This document shows, piece after piece, positions 7,341 to 42,057 of a stretch of DNA of 64,000 nt. Within the stretch, counting starts at the first letter, position 1. Every line of letters starts with the position of its first letter. The notes beneath the pieces are model-generated. The model had not been told where the DNA came from and did not search any database. It worked only from the letters and a program-made list of their open reading frames with translations. Position numbers and translations under genes: made by a program. The stretch lies in the NCBI GenBank assembly GCA_045603965.1, contig JAZUND010000019.1, positions 312-64,311 of the forward strand, written 5' to 3'. This DNA comes from Candidatus Nanosyncoccus sp. (GTDB lineage Bacteria > Patescibacteriota > Saccharimonadia > Saccharimonadales > Saccharimonadaceae).

Positions 7341-7403
7341 ACAAAACCTTTCTAATCAGACTTATTTTTTTATTATAATACCACAAGCCAAAACCATTAA
7401 TAC

Positions 7404-7546
7404 AAAAATGGCACCGCAAGGGTGAAACACTTTAATCACGACATCAAGGCTGACATACGTAATCAAGAACCTTCCGGTGCCAACATTCCGTACGTCAACA
7501 ATACTAAATAAAAGTACCTTGATTCTCAATGATTAAAGTGTTTCAC
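7404..7546 (-). ncRNA. Structured RNA family, copy 1 (about 143 nt)
   Basis: Promoter TTGCGG-17-TATAAT (7552-7580). 17-bp perfect stem 7530-7546/7422-7438. Conserved 3' end CACCCTTGCGGTGCCATTTTTG. Confidence 0.65.
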
Positions 7547-7594
7547 TTACCATTATATATTGAAAAAACATTCTCCGCAAGCTATAATTTAATT

Positions 7595-29106: not shown

Positions 29107-31296
29107 CTACTCTGCTAGGATACACCTAACTGAGAAACCGTTGTTGCGAACAAAATTACCATTGGACGGATAGACACCGCTAGAATTGACGCCGAGGAAG
29201 TACATACTGTAAGTACTGTACCACGTAGAGGACCAGAAGAAGCCGCTGTTACCCTGATAGCCCGCCTTACCTAAGATGAAGCGGCCGGATAATGGCGTAG
29301 AGAGAGCGGTCTGAAAGGCAGCTACTTGACTTGGGCTACCGCCACTATATTGACTATAAAGATTCTGGAACTCACCAGTTGAACCACCGGTTGGCAATCG
29401 CCATTTGTATGGACAAATATCATCTGTGATGTCTCGGATAGAATCAGCAACTGGATCACTAGAAGGGGAACCGGCAGATGATGTCCCGAAGCCACCCCAA
29501 CAATATGAACCAGCCGAAGCGGCACAATAGTTATAATATACACCTATCTTGCCTTGCACTATACTAGTCACTCCGTTAATAGTTTCAGAAGTAACACTAT
29601 CGTAAGACCAAGGTGAGTCAGCTGCTCCACCGTCCACACAGTATGCATCACTACAGCCACCACTAGTAGTGCTATCTACTGCTATCCACGGCTGTGAATA
29701 ACTGTAGCTGGAAGTCCAAGTTTTCTTCACTGCCGCCATTGCCCATTTATCAGTAGCGGTACCAATAGTATCCCCTTTTAGATAGCCTAGTGCTTTATTG
29801 CTTGCATTAGTCATCTTGCCAGCATTATCACCTGTTCCGTAAAGTTGAGCCCGAGTTAGAGCGGTAAGGTCTAGCGCAAGGTTATCTAACATCCAACATT
29901 TATCGTCAGCGAGTTTCTGCACTCGGTATGGAGTTTCATCACGTTTGTCATATACCGTCGTAATAGTCGTTGGACAATTAGCCAAAGTCAAGTCTTGCAT
30001 ATATATCTTGCTAGTCTTCCCCGTCACCGTCAGCGTAGAAGTACCTGTCACCATATAAGTTGTCGGATTATCCGTCGTAGAACCCAGTGTACCATTCGCC
30101 GTCGTCGCCCAAGTGTCTAACGTATAACTGTTTGAAGTTGGCTCCATAGCAATGGTGTACGGCACTCCATATTTCAAACTCGTTGTTCCGCCACTCGTAG
30201 TCACCGAAGCGGCATTACCGTAAGTCGAGTTCTCAAACGCTACGCTCCCCACACCAGCACCAGCGAAATTTACAGTAACGGTATAACTATTCAAACCCCA
30301 CATAGCATAAAGATATAAGTCGTTAGTATTTGACGTCTGATCGATATTCCAAGACAAATCAGTCCCAGCACCATTAGGATTGTAAGTAATACCGCCACAA
30401 CTATCCACACCGGCCGCTGTAGTGATATTACTAACACTACTAGTGCCACTACACCAACCTAGAAATGTATAATTTGTTTTGGTGGGTACAGCACTGCTTA
30501 TATTAACAGTTTCAGCATAAGAAGAACTACTCTCATTCACTGGGGCATTGCTACCATCCCCAACATTGTAGGTAATAGTATACGGTGTAGCATTCGCTAC
30601 CGCCGTCACCACGAAAGCACTACTATAAGTACCCGGAGGTGTAGTGGCATAACTCACCTTAGCCCCAATGACGATGTTATAGTCATTCTCACTATTATTG
30701 GCAGCATTAGTAATGTCTAGCGTATCACCTTCAATAGTAGGAGCAGGACGAAAAACAGTATTAGCACCACTGTTAAATTTACTTGGCAAATATCCCCAAG
30801 TACTAGCAACAAAATCATTTACGTCACTCAATGTAGACGTCGTGATAGACGGTATCGTGCAATTAGCCGTACAATTGGTATCCACATTTGTAAGTGGCAC
30901 TGGTGTACCTGTAGTGCCAGAAGCTGCAGCTATTTTCAGAGTATAGCCCGTAGCGTTGTTCGTACTAATGCCTATTGTCGTGTCGGAAGCAGACGTACTC
31001 CCCATCATAAAACCATCATCATAATTAGATAAATCAAGCGAAACCGAATCACTGACCCGTATGCTGATGGTGCTAGCGGCGGCATAGACTACACCCCCAT
31101 TATTAAACAGCAATGAAGCAACCCCTGTCACAGTCATTAATACCGCAACCGTCTCCGCCCTAAAGCCAAGACCACTACGCATAAATGCACTACTACGCCG
31201 CCCAAGAGAGGGGTGAATCTTTAGTTTGAAATAAAGGCCCAAAGATTCCAGGCGGCGTAGTAGTACATTCATATTATATATATGCTTATTCTTCAT
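29107..31296 (-). CDS. Surface protein with InlB B-repeat-like and C-terminal Fib_succ_major (FISUMP, C-type lectin fold) domains
   Basis: PTKTNYTFLGW (B-repeat), CWMLDNL, YYNYCAASAG, CPYKWRLPT, GFFWSST, NGFSVRCI. Confidence 0.85.
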   Translation of the reverse strand: MKNKHIYNMNVLLRRLESLGLYFKLKIHPSLGRRSSAFMRSGLGFRAETVAVLMTVTGVASLLFNNGGVVYAAASTISIRVSDSVSLDLSNYDDGFMMGSTSASDTTIGISTNNATGYTLKIAAASGTTGTPVPLTNVDTNCTANCTIPSITTSTLSDVNDFVASTWGYLPSKFNSGANTVFRPAPTIEGDTLDITNAANNSENDYNIVIGAKVSYATTPPGTYSSAFVVTAVANATPYTITYNVGDGSNAPVNESSSSYAETVNISSAVPTKTNYTFLGWCSGTSSVSNITTAAGVDSCGGITYNPNGAGTDLSWNIDQTSNTNDLYLYAMWGLNSYTVTVNFAGAGVGSVAFENSTYGNAASVTTSGGTTSLKYGVPYTIAMEPTSNSYTLDTWATTANGTLGSTTDNPTTYMVTGTSTLTVTGKTSKIYMQDLTLANCPTTITTVYDKRDETPYRVQKLADDKCWMLDNLALDLTALTRAQLYGTGDNAGKMTNASNKALGYLKGDTIGTATDKWAMAAVKKTWTSSYSYSQPWIAVDSTTSGGCSDAYCVDGGAADSPWSYDSVTSETINGVTSIVQGKIGVYYNYCAASAGSYCWGGFGTSSAGSPSSDPVADSIRDITDDICPYKWRLPTGGSTGEFQNLYSQYSGGSPSQVAAFQTALSTPLSGRFILGKAGYQGNSGFFWSSTWYSTYSMYFLGVNSSGVYPSNGNFVRNNGFSVRCILAE

Positions 31297-31348
31297 GTTA
31301 CCTCGTTATTAATACCTCCACCCCGAGCGTGCTACATATAATATAATC

Positions 31349-31494
31349 AAAAATGGCACCGCAAGGGTGCAACAACCTAATAACTAGCATCAGTGACCTG
31401 ATTCAGCTAACGGCTTCCTTGCGATGCCATTTTTTTGCTAAACTCAGGTCCTGATACAAAATATCCTGATGCCATTGGTTATTAAGTTGTTGCA
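31349..31494 (-). ncRNA. Structured RNA family, copy 2 (about 146 nt)
   Basis: Extended -10 TG-T-TACAAT at 31500-31508. 17-bp stem 31478-31494/31368-31384 with one G.U. Identical 22-nt 3' end at 31348-31369. Confidence 0.65.
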
Positions 31495-31575
31495 ATACCA
31501 TTGTAACACGAAAAAACGTCTTTGCCATAGACATTTTCTGCTATTTCAAGTTTTCCACAACCAAAAAAGAAAAAG

Positions 31576-32310
31576 CTACACGAATAATAACGCCAGCCTC
31601 AACACCAACCAAATAATCAACCTAATAATAATCGCTATTATAATAATCAGCGTCAATAATATCACAAATCCCGCCACCGTCGGTGCCCATACAGGCGACG
31701 CATAATTGTGACGATATAATTCTGTAGAAGGTAGTGATGCAATTATTGTGTCGTGTAACTCTTCCGCCGCTGGGTATTTCTGGATTTCCGACAGCATACA
31801 GTTAATAAACTCCGGCGAACTCCACAGCCACCCATTCGCCAATGCTTCTTCACGACAAGTCTCCCCTGCCATACCATACACATTGCCATAAGGATTCTCA
31901 TCACCCGTCATATTCTGCTCAGCCTCCTCGAGCGCCCTAGTTGCGTCCCGCAAATATTGATGCTCCAAATAAAACGGCCCCGTGCCAAAGCTCACTCGTT
32001 GCACACCATTCTCTTCCACCACATTCACCACAATATGCGAAAATACGAATTCCTTCAATCGTATCAATGCACTCGCCAATTCCTTATCGTTCGTAGCCGC
32101 CTCCGCTTCACTCTCATTCGCACCAATCCTCGCATCTACGGCAAGCACTGCATCTCTCAGTTCTGTCATCCGGATGTGGTTAAATCTAAGTAACGTCGCA
32201 TCAACTGGCAATAACACTACCAACAAAACCACCAGCACCCACGTTTTTATCCGCAAGCGCCATTTACGCTTTCGCACAAATTCCCTTATTTTCCCACCCG
32301 TTTTCACCAT
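31576..32310 (-). CDS. Hypothetical membrane protein (N- and C-terminal TM helices)
   Basis: 244-aa ORF with two hydrophobic segments, directly after aspS. Confidence 0.75.
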   Translation of the reverse strand: MVKTGGKIREFVRKRKWRLRIKTWVLVVLLVVLLPVDATLLRFNHIRMTELRDAVLAVDARIGANESEAEAATNDKELASALIRLKEFVFSHIVVNVVEENGVQRVSFGTGPFYLEHQYLRDATRALEEAEQNMTGDENPYGNVYGMAGETCREEALANGWLWSSPEFINCMLSEIQKYPAAEELHDTIIASLPSTELYRHNYASPVWAPTVAGFVILLTLIIIIAIIIRLIIWLVLRLALLFV

Positions 32311-32327
32311 ATATTATATATATTATA

Positions 32328-34088
32328 TTATTCTTCCGGTATAATCGCAAGGTGTGCTTCATCAAGTTGCACCTGATCCACCACAGACGGCGAATTCATC
32401 ATCAAGTCCACCCCATTACCATTCTTCGGGAACGCTACAATGTCGCGGATATTCTCGGTATCTTCTAGCACCATAAAGATTCGGTCAATTCCAAACGCGC
32501 ATCCCGCATGCGGTGGCGCCCCAAACTTAAATGCCGACAGCATTCCACCAAACCTTGCCTCTACATATTCCTTATTATAACCCAAGATATTAAATACCTT
32601 GTACATTATTTCTGGATTATAATTTCTTACTGCACCAGAACAAATCTCGTAGCCATTCATCACCATATCATATTGATCCGCCACAATTGCCAGCTTCTCT
32701 TCTACTGTTTCAGCTTTTTCAAGCGCTTCTAGTCCACCTTTTGGCATTGAAAACGGGTTGTGACCGAAATCTAACTTCTTGTTTTTCTCATCCCACTCGT
32801 AAAACGGAAAATCCACAATCCAACAAAGCGCCACCACATTTGGATCCTTCAACCCAAAATGGTCCGCAAAGGAAATCCGGAGCTGACCTAGCACCTTGTT
32901 TACCTTATCGCGCTCATCCGCGCCAAAGAATACCGCATCACCATCTTCTGCCCCCATCCGTTCGCGCACCCCAGCAATTTCCTCGTCACTCATAAATTTC
33001 AAAATCGGTGACTTGGCTTCTCCATCACTATACAATATGTACGCAAGTCCCCCAGCACCCAATTTTCTCGCCTGTTCCGTAAATTCGTCAATCTCACGTC
33101 GCGTCAACTTCGCACCACCCTTCACGCAAATTGCCTTCACGCATGGCTGTTTAAATACCTTGAACTCTGTCTTACTAAACACATCTGTAAGCTCCGTAAG
33201 CTCCATACCATATCTCAAATCTGGTTTATCTACGCCATATCTTTCCATAGATTCGGTATACGGAATTCGTGGCACTTTTTCAGAAAGCAGTTTCTTCCCT
33301 GCAAAATCTTTTACTAACGACTTAATTAACGGTTCCATTTCTTCGCGCACCATCTCGCCATTATCTGCAAATGACATCTCGAGATCTAACTGATAAAAAT
33401 CACCATATAATCTATCCGCTCGCGGGTCTTCATCACGAAAACATGGCGCAATCTGATAGTACTTCGGAATACCACCCACCATCAAAAGCTGCTTAAATTG
33501 TTGCGGAGCTTGCGGCAGTGCATAGAACTGTCCAGGGTGAAGCCTGGATGGAATCAAGAAGTCACGCGCTCCTTCCGGTGACGAATTTGCGAGTATCGGA
33601 GTCGTCACTTCAATAAATTCGTGTTTCTCCATATAAGCACGCATAAAGCTATAATACCTTGCTCGCTCGGTCAATAACTTCAACATAGATGGACGACGAA
33701 GATCTAGGAATCGATATTTTAACCGCATCTCTTCTGACGATTTTTCACCATCATCATGTGTGTTTACTGGTAACGGCTCGCTACGGTTAAGTAGCACCAA
33801 CTCTTCCACCACTAGTTCAATCTTCCCAGTAGGAATATTTGGATTTACTAGTTCTGGCTCACGCTCGCGCATTTTGCCCACTGCCTTCAACACAAATTCA
33901 TCACGCACCGACTCCGCCAATTTAAACGCTTCCTCAGTTTCTGGCGTCACCACCAACTGAATAATTCCAGTATGGTCACGCAAATCAATAAAAATCAATC
34001 CACCATGGTCACGGCGCGAATTCACCCAACCTTCCACCGTTACTTTTTTTCCTAAATAATCAATTAGTTTATCAGTCAAGATTCTCAT
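32328..34088 (-). CDS. aspS: Aspartate--tRNA ligase
   Basis: RRDHGGLIFIDLRD, RLKYRFLDLRR, SSPEGARDFLIPSR, YALPQAPQQFKQLLM, FRDEDPRADR, GAPPHAGCAFGIDR. Confidence 0.97.
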   Translation of the reverse strand: MRILTDKLIDYLGKKVTVEGWVNSRRDHGGLIFIDLRDHTGIIQLVVTPETEEAFKLAESVRDEFVLKAVGKMREREPELVNPNIPTGKIELVVEELVLLNRSEPLPVNTHDDGEKSSEEMRLKYRFLDLRRPSMLKLLTERARYYSFMRAYMEKHEFIEVTTPILANSSPEGARDFLIPSRLHPGQFYALPQAPQQFKQLLMVGGIPKYYQIAPCFRDEDPRADRLYGDFYQLDLEMSFADNGEMVREEMEPLIKSLVKDFAGKKLLSEKVPRIPYTESMERYGVDKPDLRYGMELTELTDVFSKTEFKVFKQPCVKAICVKGGAKLTRREIDEFTEQARKLGAGGLAYILYSDGEAKSPILKFMSDEEIAGVRERMGAEDGDAVFFGADERDKVNKVLGQLRISFADHFGLKDPNVVALCWIVDFPFYEWDEKNKKLDFGHNPFSMPKGGLEALEKAETVEEKLAIVADQYDMVMNGYEICSGAVRNYNPEIMYKVFNILGYNKEYVEARFGGMLSAFKFGAPPHAGCAFGIDRIFMVLEDTENIRDIVAFPKNGNGVDLMMNSPSVVDQVQLDEAHLAIIPEE

Positions 34089-41788: not shown

Positions 41789-41842
41789 TATAGCATTAAA
41801 AATCTATTTTACAAAACCAACATAAGTGTGATATGATTAAAC

Positions 41843-41987
41843 TGTTACAAGTTTACATTTAATTATGGCAGCGATTTTTATATATCGCAGTTTCAAGCAA
41901 TAAATGGCATCGTAAGGAAGCCAAATGTTTGGAACCGCGTACGCTGTGACAAATGTAAGCTTGTAACACCCTTGCGGTGCCATTTTT
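41843..41987 (+). ncRNA. Structured RNA family, copy 3 (about 145 nt)
   Basis: Extended -10 TG-A-TATGAT at 41829-41837. 18-bp stem 41843-41860/41951-41968 with one G.U. Identical 22-nt 3' end at 41967-41988. Confidence 0.65.
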
Positions 41988-42057
41988 GTGCATACTCCAT
42001 TATGATTCATAAGATGGCACCGCAAGGGGGATAGTAACAAAATAAGTGAGGTAAGCT

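What the first reader, a model, noticed from the sequence alone, without database searches (positions are those of the whole stretch)
31348..31508. RNA family copy 2, upstream of the 729-aa Fib_succ_major gene
Seen in sequence: -10 TG-T-TACAAT (31500-31508). Stem 31478-31494/31368-31384 continues as 31466-31472/31387-31393 and 31444-31450/31395-31401. The alternative B/B' helix (31417-31434 with 31349-31366) is 18 bp with a single G.U, the longest in the family. The U-tract is about 52 nt before the ATG. The B-to-B' spacing is 50 nt here, versus 48 and 52 nt in the other copies.
Basis: partly seen in the sequence, partly recalled or inferred. Interest (0 to 1): 0.8.

Follow-up and report, generated by a model that had tools for sequence, protein, structure and literature searches.

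The report
Pseudoknotted leader RNA before adhesin gene
The flagged stretch is a real folded RNA of about 150 bases, absent from Rfam, that sits between the only promoter and a surface-protein gene of a tiny gut Saccharibacterium and ends in a built-in stop signal, so it probably sets how much of the gene is made.

Summary
Observation confirmed; interpretation partly supported. Window 31345-31498 (- strand) is one of ten copies in this 0.8-Mb Candidatus Nanosyncoccus (Saccharibacteria, CPR) genome of a ~150-nt 5' leader RNA with no Rfam 15 match.

- **Anatomy.** An extended -10 promoter (TGTTACAAT) is followed by a ~39-bp rod (P1, P2, U-rich bulge, P3). Its apical loop carries box B. Box B' abuts the 3' arm of P1 and runs into U5.
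- **Covariation, 100 homologues.** Rod: 92.8% paired against 32-39% in slid controls, and all 39 pairs change on both sides. B:B': 92.3% against 42-52%. G.U outnumbers A.C six to one, so the sense-strand RNA is selected, not a DNA operator pair.
- **Context.** An ORF with a Shine-Dalgarno site follows in 92 of 100 copies. FISUMP lectin-type surface proteins dominate. A second promoter in between is rare (8 of 92).
- **Most likely function.** A transcription attenuator that uses a long-range terminator helix.
- **Outside the genus.** A patchy one- or two-copy variant precedes methylase, recombinase and membrane-protein genes.

The parts
31500..31508 (-). Extended -10 promoter, TGTTACAAT. Predicted transcription start is about 31494 +/- 2, at the first base pair of P1.
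   Evidence: Sequence. TGTGnTATAAT sits at -12..-2 of the model start with 74-94% conservation per position in 100 homologues.
31345..31498 (-). Whole leader RNA, copy 2 of the family (covariance-model match).
   Evidence: R2 155.6 bits, E 3.5e-30. MFE -61.3 kcal/mol, z -7.29. No Rfam 15 match.
31478..31494 (-). P1 5' arm (17 nt).
   Evidence: Pairs with 31368-31384. 97.9% of cells paired in 100 sequences, and all 17 pairs change on both sides.
31368..31384 (-). P1 3' arm. Its last bases (GCA) are also the start of the 5' half of local hairpin T.
31466..31474 (-). P2 5' arm.
   Evidence: Pairs with 31385-31393. Covaries (helices 2-3).
31385..31393 (-). P2 3' arm.
31451..31465 (-). 5'-side bulge with a U run (GAUAUUUUGUAUC mini-hairpin).
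   Evidence: UUUU is present in this bulge in 85 of 100 copies. The mini-hairpin is weak and not general: median z -0.5.
31437..31450 (-). P3 5' arm.
   Evidence: Pairs with 31395-31407. Helices 4-5 are 85-97% paired, and all pairs covary.
31395..31407 (-). P3 3' arm.
31417..31434 (-). Box B with its A-tract, in the 29-nt apical loop (AAAAAUGGCAUCGCAAGG).
   Evidence: Pairs with B' over 18 bp, duplex -29.2 kcal/mol. B:B' covaries in 100 sequences.
31349..31366 (-). Box B' plus the U5 tract (CCUUGCGGUGCCAUUUUU). It abuts P1 with a 1-nt linker.
   Evidence: Near-invariant in the family. The U run has a median of 5 in all subgroups.
31356..31370 (-). Local hairpin T, GCACC-CUUGC-GGUGC, ending 2 nt before U5. 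It competes with the end of P1 and with B:B'.
   Evidence: A local hairpin is predicted just before the U run in nearly all of 123 family members. Outer pair: G-C 56, A-U 8, G-U 0, A.C 24, Fisher p 1.6e-4. Out-of-genus members have 6-7 bp with compensatory variants.
31319..31332 (-). Weak B''-like box (GCACGC-UC-GGGGUG), able to pair with B' downstream of the U-tract.
   Evidence: Duplex -19.1 against -12.4 for shuffles, z -2.3. A strong B'' is present in 46 of 100 homologues.
31294..31304 (-). Shine-Dalgarno site GAGGU and the ATG of the 729-aa gene.
   Evidence: The SD is not systematically sequestered.
29107..31296 (-). Downstream gene: a 729-aa surface protein with one Listeria-Bacteroides repeat and a C-terminal FISUMP domain.
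   Evidence: PF09479 9.3e-08. TIGR02145 1.4e-10.
7400..7549 (-). Family copy 1, upstream of a 317-aa membrane-anchored protein.
41839..41991 (+). Family copy 3, upstream of a 603-aa FISUMP protein. A perfect B'' lies at 42014-42028.

Best explanation
The stretch is a cis-acting 5' leader RNA that works as a transcription attenuator.

**Proposed sequence of events.**
1. An extended -10 promoter starts the transcript at the first base pair of P1.
2. A ~39-bp rod (P1, P2, a U-rich bulge that can act as a hinge, P3) forms as the RNA is made. It presents box B in a loop whose linker lengths are fixed.
3. When B' emerges directly after the 3' arm of P1, it is captured by B. This gives a 14-18 bp long-range helix (a pseudoknot relative to the rod) that runs straight into U5.
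4. That helix, possibly helped by the short local hairpin T, acts as an intrinsic terminator. The product would be a ~147-nt RNA with both ends base-paired.
5. The FISUMP surface-protein gene has no promoter of its own. It is expressed only by polymerases that read through.
6. The read-through fraction would depend on how fast B reaches B'. Polymerase speed could set this, or a still unknown factor that recognises the near-invariant B/B' sequence.

**Shown:** the promoter, the helices, the covariation of both rod and B:B', the strand, the conserved U-tract, the position in front of genes, and the lack of a second promoter.

**Inferred:** that termination occurs, that B:B' rather than T drives it, and that it is regulated.
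For: - **Structure.** The rod is 92.8% paired against 32-39% in slid controls, and 39 of 39 pairs change on both sides. B:B' is 92.3% paired against 42-52%, with 94 cells changed on both sides. There are dozens of B/B' haplotypes with compensatory changes, including a differently sequenced pair in the tenth copy and in distant members.
- **Strand.** G.U to A.C is 298:50 in the rod and 150:24 in the B:B' core. The sense strand folds 14 kcal/mol better than the antisense strand.
- **Promoter.** It is conserved in 80 of 92 copies upstream, while only 8 of 92 have such a motif between the U-tract and the ATG.
- **Gene context.** An ORF with an SD site starts a median of 64 nt after the RNA, in the same orientation, in 92 of 100 copies.
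- **U-tract.** The U run keeps a median of 5 whether T has 5 bp or only 4 bp. B:B' is equally strong (-25.2 kcal/mol) in both groups.
- **Geometry.** B-to-B' spacing has a median of 50 nt (IQR 47-51). Loop linkers are 6 and 9 nt with very narrow spread. The P1/B' junction is 0-1 nt. Total rod length is conserved.
- **Translation.** The SD is not sequestered, so control at the level of translation is unlikely.
Against: - There is no transcript data.
- A canonical short hairpin T exists and covaries, strongly so in out-of-genus members. This fits a model in which T is the terminator and B:B' blocks it.
- No trans-acting factor was identified. There is only one NusG.
- Some Nanosyncoccus genomes with many FISUMP genes have no detectable copy.
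- The function of B'' is unexplained.
- Whether a 14-18 bp loop-to-tail helix is sterically compatible with the intact rod was not tested.
Confidence: 0.5

Rival explanations
1. This is a two-state ON switch. The short local hairpin T (GCACC/GGUGC plus U5) is the real terminator. The fully closed P1 together with the B:B' pseudoknot is the antiterminator, because the two sequester both halves of T. A ligand or protein that stabilises or disrupts the loop-tail contact then decides the outcome.
For: - T has canonical geometry: a 4-6-nt loop, and a stem that ends 1-2 nt before U5.
- A local hairpin at this position is predicted in nearly all of 123 members.
- T covaries: GACACC/GGUGUC, GACGACC/GGUCGUC, GACAACC/GGUUGUC, GACACCA/UGGUGUC and GACACCG/CGGUGUC out of genus. 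In Nanosyncoccus, U appears only opposite A, p 1.6e-4.
- The 5' half of T overlaps P1. Its loop and 3' half are B'.
Against: - In Nanosyncoccus, T is only 4 bp (-4.1 kcal/mol) in 27 of the 91 copies classified; 24 of these have an A.C outer mismatch. Yet U5 and B:B' are unchanged in those copies.
- B:B' extends through the spacer into the U-tract, with a partly conserved A-tract. An antiterminator would not need this.
- From established knowledge: an oligonucleotide annealing in place of the upstream half of a terminator hairpin can trigger release (Yarnell and Roberts 1999). A long-range helix ending at the U-tract should therefore terminate, not protect.
- There are few conserved unpaired nucleotides of the kind a ligand pocket needs.
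Confidence: 0.22
2. The terminated ~147-nt RNA is the functional product: a stable, doubly end-protected small RNA acting in trans, for example as a protein sponge or decoy. Expression of the gene behind it is incidental read-through.
For: - Both ends are base-paired: the 5' end in P1, and the U-tract with the A-tract.
- Out-of-genus copies occur once or twice per genome, are very similar across five families (81% mean column identity, E down to 1e-31), and precede unrelated genes.
Against: - In every case examined a gene with an SD site follows within about 20-225 nt in the same orientation, and it usually lacks its own promoter.
- Ten to 21 copies per genome, each tied to a paralogous surface-protein gene, is typical of a cis element.
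- Rod sequences differ between copies, so there is no common trans-pairing surface beyond B/B'.
Confidence: 0.12
3. It is an RNA processing or stability element. The long duplexes (the rod, or P1 stacked on B:B', or B':B'') are RNase III substrates or 5' stabilisers that set the mRNA half-life. The U-tract plays no terminator role.
For: - There are quasi-continuous helices of more than 20 bp at the very 5' end of the mRNA.
- The B':B'' hairpin is present in about half of the copies.
Against: - It does not explain the strict conservation of U5 directly after B'.
- It does not explain the near-invariance of the B/B' sequence.
- No evidence on cleavage is available.
Confidence: 0.08
4. It is a DNA-level element: a pair of inverted protein-binding sites (operators), or recombinase target repeats for phase variation.
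For: - B, B' and B'' are inverted or direct repeats of one 14-mer.
- Surface proteins and methylases are classic phase-variable genes, and one out-of-genus copy precedes a serine recombinase.
Against: - Mismatches are G.U on the sense strand six times more often than A.C.
- The rod arms differ in sequence between copies but keep pairing, which a protein-binding site would not do.
- All 92 copies with a downstream gene have the same orientation.
Confidence: 0.03

Closest known systems
Intrinsic-terminator attenuators in leader RNAs (trp, pyr and T-box leaders; riboswitch expression platforms)
   Same: A promoter-proximal structured leader ends in a GC-rich helix plus a U-tract, placed between the only promoter and the gene. 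One segment (B') has alternative partners.
   Different: The main helix before the U-tract is closed over about 50 nt by the apical loop of a preformed rod. It is a pseudoknot, not a local hairpin. There is no leader peptide, no tRNA-binding features and no recognisable aptamer core. The genes controlled are surface lectins, not biosynthetic operons.
Riboswitches that use a loop-to-3'-tail pseudoknot next to a terminator (ZTP, fluoride, preQ1-I, SAM-II/V)
   Same: Long-range pairing between a hairpin loop and the 3' tail overlaps the terminator region.
   Different: Those pseudoknots are 4-8 bp, lie upstream of or compete with the terminator, and surround conserved ligand-contacting nucleotides. 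Here the helix is 14-18 bp, runs into the U-tract itself, and the conserved bases are almost all paired. No Rfam model matches.
Leader-based control of surface-structure loci in host-associated bacteria (Bacteroides UpxY/UpxZ acting on capsule 5' UTRs; LoaP)
   Same: Many paralogous surface loci each carry a related 5' leader with a locus-specific part and a common part.
   Different: Those systems depend on NusG paralogues. This genome has a single NusG. No invertible promoter was seen.
6S RNA and other rod-shaped small RNAs
   Same: A long, imperfect rod with a large bulge, and a discrete promoter and terminator.
   Different: It is multi-copy, always directly upstream of a gene, has a loop-tail pseudoknot, and gives no hit to the 6S models in Rfam.

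Membership tests
Any Rfam 15 family | Match to a curated covariance model at or near its gathering score | tested here: not met
   Only tRNAs in the window. The best match in the locus is 22 bits against a 65-bit threshold. Nothing for the out-of-genus copies.
Intrinsic (Rho-independent) terminator | A GC-rich helix immediately followed by a U run | tested here: met
   B:B' (-25 kcal/mol median) and hairpin T both end at a U run with a median of 5.
Intrinsic (Rho-independent) terminator | Transcripts end at the U run in vivo or in vitro | not testable with these tools
Classical attenuator (mutually exclusive terminator and antiterminator) | The two structures share a strand | tested here: inconclusive
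Hairpin T does share its 5' half with P1 and its 3' half with B:B'. Which helix terminates is unknown.
Metabolite riboswitch | Conserved unpaired core nucleotides, and a consistent link to genes of one pathway | tested here: not met
   Conserved positions are nearly all inside B:B', at the base of P1 and in the U-tract. Downstream genes are FISUMP surface proteins, pilin-like proteins, methylases, a recombinase and membrane proteins.
H-type (loop to 3' tail) pseudoknot | Hairpin-loop bases pair with a segment outside the hairpin, supported by covariation | tested here: met
   Coexistence with the rod in three dimensions was not tested.
DNA operator pair or invertible repeat | Conservation of the primary motif without strand-specific pairing rules | tested here: not met
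   G.U far exceeds A.C, and there are compensatory changes.
Translational (SD-sequestering) leader | The SD is paired in one conserved conformation | tested here: not met
   Median probability that the SD is unpaired is 0.52. Only 10% of copies fall below 0.3.

The most novel reading that the evidence does not exclude
The leader is a modular and horizontally mobile promoter-plus-gate cassette. Its invariant B/B' pseudoknot-terminator would be read by one shared factor or physiological signal, while the locus-specific rod gives each paralogue its own identity. This would let a 0.8-Mb episymbiont with few regulators coordinate 10-21 adhesin/lectin paralogues, or express them in a mutually exclusive way. 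In other Saccharibacteria the same cassette would control restriction-modification and recombinase genes. It would be a new RNA-based route to surface and host-range variation in CPR bacteria.
Probability: 0.15. Interest if true: 0.85.

Novelty: new variant of a known kind. Interest (0 to 1): 0.65.

Why it matters
Gene regulation in Saccharibacteria and other CPR bacteria is almost unknown. Full-text searches found no paper on structured RNAs in these bacteria.

- **The genes behind the leader.** They are lectin-type surface proteins. By general knowledge of episymbionts, such proteins are candidates for attachment to the host bacterium.
- **Scale.** One RNA family heads 10-21 of these genes per genome. 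That would make it a major control point of the episymbiotic lifestyle.
- **Mechanism.** A terminator helix closed over 50 nt by the loop of a preformed rod would be an unusual form of intrinsic termination. It is easy to test in vitro.
- **Practical use.** The covariance models built here can annotate the family in several hundred MAGs.

Tried and rejected
- **Known RNA family.** Rfam at gathering and at permissive thresholds gave nothing, for the locus and for out-of-genus copies.
- **Specialised NusG paralogue as antiterminator.** Only one NusG is present.
- **SD sequestration or translational control.** No systematic pairing of the SD.
- **Second promoter between the U-tract and the ATG.** Found in only 8 of 92 copies.
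- **A conserved P2a hairpin that would make a three-way junction.** It is weak and not general, median z -0.5. Only the U run is conserved.
- **Helix-length compensation between P1+P2 and P3+B:B'.** Only total rod length is conserved (rho -0.55 between lower and upper parts). This does not decide the 3D model.
- **Mini-ORF inside B** (AUG GCA UCG UAA in the commonest haplotype). About a quarter of copies have ACG or UUG in place of AUG and there is no SD, so I treat it as coincidence.
- **Literature.** Searches on Saccharibacteria or Patescibacteria structured RNAs and on FISUMP returned nothing on this element.
- **MAFFT alignment of the copies.** It misaligned the inner helices. I replaced it with a covariance-model alignment seeded from a single sequence.

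Full report
**Observation.**
The finding lies on the minus strand, in the 279-nt gap between a 244-aa ORF (31576-32310) and the 729-aa gene (29107-31296).
- TGTTACAAT is at 31508-31500.
- P1 is 31494-31478 with 31384-31368.
- P2 is 31472-31466 with 31393-31387.
- P3 is 31450-31444 with 31401-31395, continued by 31442-31437 with 31407-31402.
- B is 31434-31417 and B' is 31366-31349 (18 bp, one G.U).
- U5 is at 31353-31349, 52 nt before the ATG.

The B' 18-mer with up to 3 mismatches occurs 6 times in the window, against 0.07 expected. The sense strand folds at -61.3 kcal/mol (z -7.29); the antisense strand gives -47.6. The 729-aa protein has a Listeria-Bacteroides repeat and a C-terminal FISUMP domain.

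**Organism and copy number.**
The window is contig C19 of a 795,854-bp, 99%-complete genome. Its AspRS is 99% identical to that of a Candidatus Nanosyncoccus MAG, and all close relatives are Saccharibacteria from ruminant or other animal guts.
- A pattern scan and covariance models find ten copies in this genome. Three are in the window: 7400-7549 (-), 31345-31498 (-) and 41839-41991 (+).
- All ten fold the same way:
  - P1 of 15-18 bp;
  - P2 of 6-9 bp;
  - a 12-22-nt bulge on the 5' side only, containing a U run;
  - P3 of 11-15 bp;
  - a loop of about 29 nt with box B;
  - then, with 0-1 nt after the P1 3' arm, the near-invariant CCUUGCGGUGCCAUUUUU.

**Covariation.**
MAFFT misaligned the inner helices. 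I therefore built a covariance model from this copy alone (R1), aligned the genome's copies to it (A4) and rebuilt the model (R2). The paralogues in A4 already give 94.4% paired cells against about 35% for slid controls.

R2 finds 1-21 copies in 21 of 36 genomes of the genus. For 100 copies fetched with flanks:

| Measure | Rod (P1-P3) | B:B' |
|---|---|---|
| Cells paired | 92.8% | 92.3% |
| Slid controls | 32-39% | 42-52% |
| Pairs changed on both sides | 39 of 39 | 8 of 18 |
| Cells changed on both sides | 1580 | 94 |
| G.U : A.C | 298 : 50 | 150 : 24 (14-bp core) |

- B:B' was written as a pseudoknot for this count. Its compensatory changes include UA to CG 18 times, GC to AU 25 times and AU to GC 34 times.
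- Because this alignment is fitted to the model, the rod counts lean towards it. P1 has almost no indels, however, and the effect is very large.
- The tenth copy and distant relatives carry differently sequenced B/B' pairs that still match.
The pairing is selected on the sense-strand RNA, not a DNA motif.

**Topology.**
The rod and B:B' share no nucleotide. For this copy the rod alone gives -61.3 kcal/mol, a nested fold with B:B' enforced gives -50.3, and the B:B' duplex alone is worth -29.2. As both sets of helices covary, the simplest reading is that they coexist as a pseudoknot. Several length constraints argue for a defined three-dimensional arrangement:
- B-to-B' spacing has a median of 50 nt (IQR 47-51).
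- The loop linkers are 6 nt (IQR 5-6) and 9 nt (IQR 9-9.25).
- The P1/B' junction is 0-1 nt.
- Total rod length is conserved; the lower and upper parts are anticorrelated, rho -0.55.

A fold-back at the U-rich bulge, giving two parallel stacks, is my inference. It is not shown.

**A third and fourth partner for B'.**
- *Hairpin T.* Folding the last 31 nt of 123 family members predicts a short local hairpin just before the U run in nearly all of them. In this copy it is GCACC (31370-31366) with GGUGC (31360-31356).
  - Its 5' half overlaps the last bases of P1. Its loop and 3' half are part of B'.
  - Outside the genus it is a canonical 6-7-bp terminator hairpin with compensatory variants.
  - In Nanosyncoccus the outer pair is G-C 56, A-U 8, G-U 0 and A.C 24 (Fisher p 1.6e-4).
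- *Box B''.* Downstream of the U-tract, 46 of 100 copies have a strong complement of B', and it covaries with B'. This copy has only a weak one, at 31332-31319.

**Context.**
- TGTGnTATAAT lies at -12..-2 of the model start in most copies. The transcript therefore starts at the base of P1.
- In 92 of 100 copies an ORF with an SD site starts a median of 64 nt after the model end, in the same orientation.
- Only 8 of 92 have an extended -10 motif in that interval, against 80 of 92 upstream.
- The SD is not systematically paired.
- Of 50 long downstream proteins, 33 match TIGR02145 (FISUMP), 26 PF09603, 6 Flg_new, 5 Lcl_C and 3 a CPR pilin model. All have an N-terminal signal or anchor sequence.
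- FISUMP genes also occur in Nanosyncoccus genomes without detectable leaders.

**Wider family.**
- R2 finds single full-length copies in six genomes of other genera of the order.
- A model built from these (R3) finds 21 of 301 genomes of the order, in 18 genera. It finds one genome outside the class among 300 sampled from the phylum.
- These copies occur once or twice per genome. They are very similar across five families (81% mean column identity).
- They keep the promoter, the rod, B:B', T and the U-tract.
- The genes 23-75 nt downstream differ: HsdM, an N6/N4 methylase, a large serine recombinase, DUF805 and small membrane proteins.
- The module is therefore generic and probably mobile. 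It is not tied to one pathway.

**Mechanism.**
I favour a leader attenuator (confidence 0.5).
- The gene depends on the upstream promoter.
- The U-tract is strictly kept.
- U-run length and B:B' strength are the same whether T has 5 bp (-7.5 kcal/mol) or only 4 bp (-4.1). This points to B:B' plus U5 as the working terminator in Nanosyncoccus.
- It is established knowledge that an oligonucleotide annealing in place of the upstream half of a terminator hairpin can release the transcript (Yarnell and Roberts 1999). A long-range helix is therefore a plausible terminator.

The main rival (0.22) reverses the logic: T terminates, and P1 plus B:B' protect. The covariation of T outside the genus keeps this rival alive. 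The remaining rivals are less likely:
- a trans-acting stable small RNA (0.12);
- a processing or stability element (0.08);
- a DNA-level element (0.03).

No regulator was found, and there is a single NusG.

**Comparison and novelty.**
Nothing in Rfam 15 matches. Full-text searches found no description of this element. It works like a terminator-based leader, but the terminator helix is closed by the loop of a preformed rod. It fails the tests for a metabolite riboswitch and for SD sequestration.

Earlier notes from this scan describe the same family in other genomes with similar readings. They are not independent evidence. I consulted them only after my own analysis.

Noticed in passing
genome contig C26:31025-31273 and 33526-33775 (outside the window): A diversity-generating retroelement. 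A 250-nt template repeat lies next to a 430-aa reverse transcriptase (C26:31300-32589, -). The variable repeat is at the 3' end of a 702-aa gene. 26 of 27 mismatches fall on template adenines. A homologous domain (68-75% identity) lies in the FISUMP gene behind the C29 leader copy.
   Followed up: partly
genome copies C33:33118(-) and C35:25635(+), compared with each other: A sharp mosaic boundary at B'. The two rods are 59% identical, which is the level of unrelated copies. From B' through the UTR and signal peptide the two are 98% identical. This suggests recombination or gene conversion with the invariant box as the breakpoint.
   Followed up: partly
relatives, e.g. L129, L135, L156, L165, L178 (hits about 115 nt from contig ends): Very many copies in related MAGs lie about 115 nt from a contig end, with the gene cut off. 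The near-identical B''-UTR-signal-peptide stretch shared by paralogues probably breaks k141 assemblies.
   Followed up: no
upstream of several copies, e.g. L012, L129, L138, L153, L151 (about -60 to -35 from the RNA start): A recurrent palindrome, GTGTTGTAAA-N3-TTACAACAC, followed by a T run, just upstream of the leader promoter. It could be the terminator of the preceding gene carried along with the cassette, or an operator.
   Followed up: no
window 31417-31430 (box B) and homologues: The commonest B haplotype reads AUG GCA UCG UAA, a three-codon mini-ORF. The U of the UAA or UGA triplet is a conserved U.G wobble (76%). About a quarter of copies lack the AUG and there is no SD, so this is probably coincidence.
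   Followed up: partly
genome contig C11:17789-17939 (-): A tenth, divergent leader copy with a compensatory B/B' pair (AUCGGCAUCGUGCC with GGCACGGUGUCGAU). Its P1 resembles the out-of-genus type. It lies upstream of an 849-aa protein.
   Followed up: yes
genome contig C13:1159-1695 (-): A second reverse-transcriptase gene (340-aa frame) on a short 4.8-kb contig. Its nature (retron, group II intron or DGR) was not examined.
   Followed up: no
G363 (same phylum, different class), C1:44916-45050: A single strong match to the out-of-genus model (E 3.9e-19) far outside Saccharimonadales. This fits horizontal transfer of the cassette.
   Followed up: no
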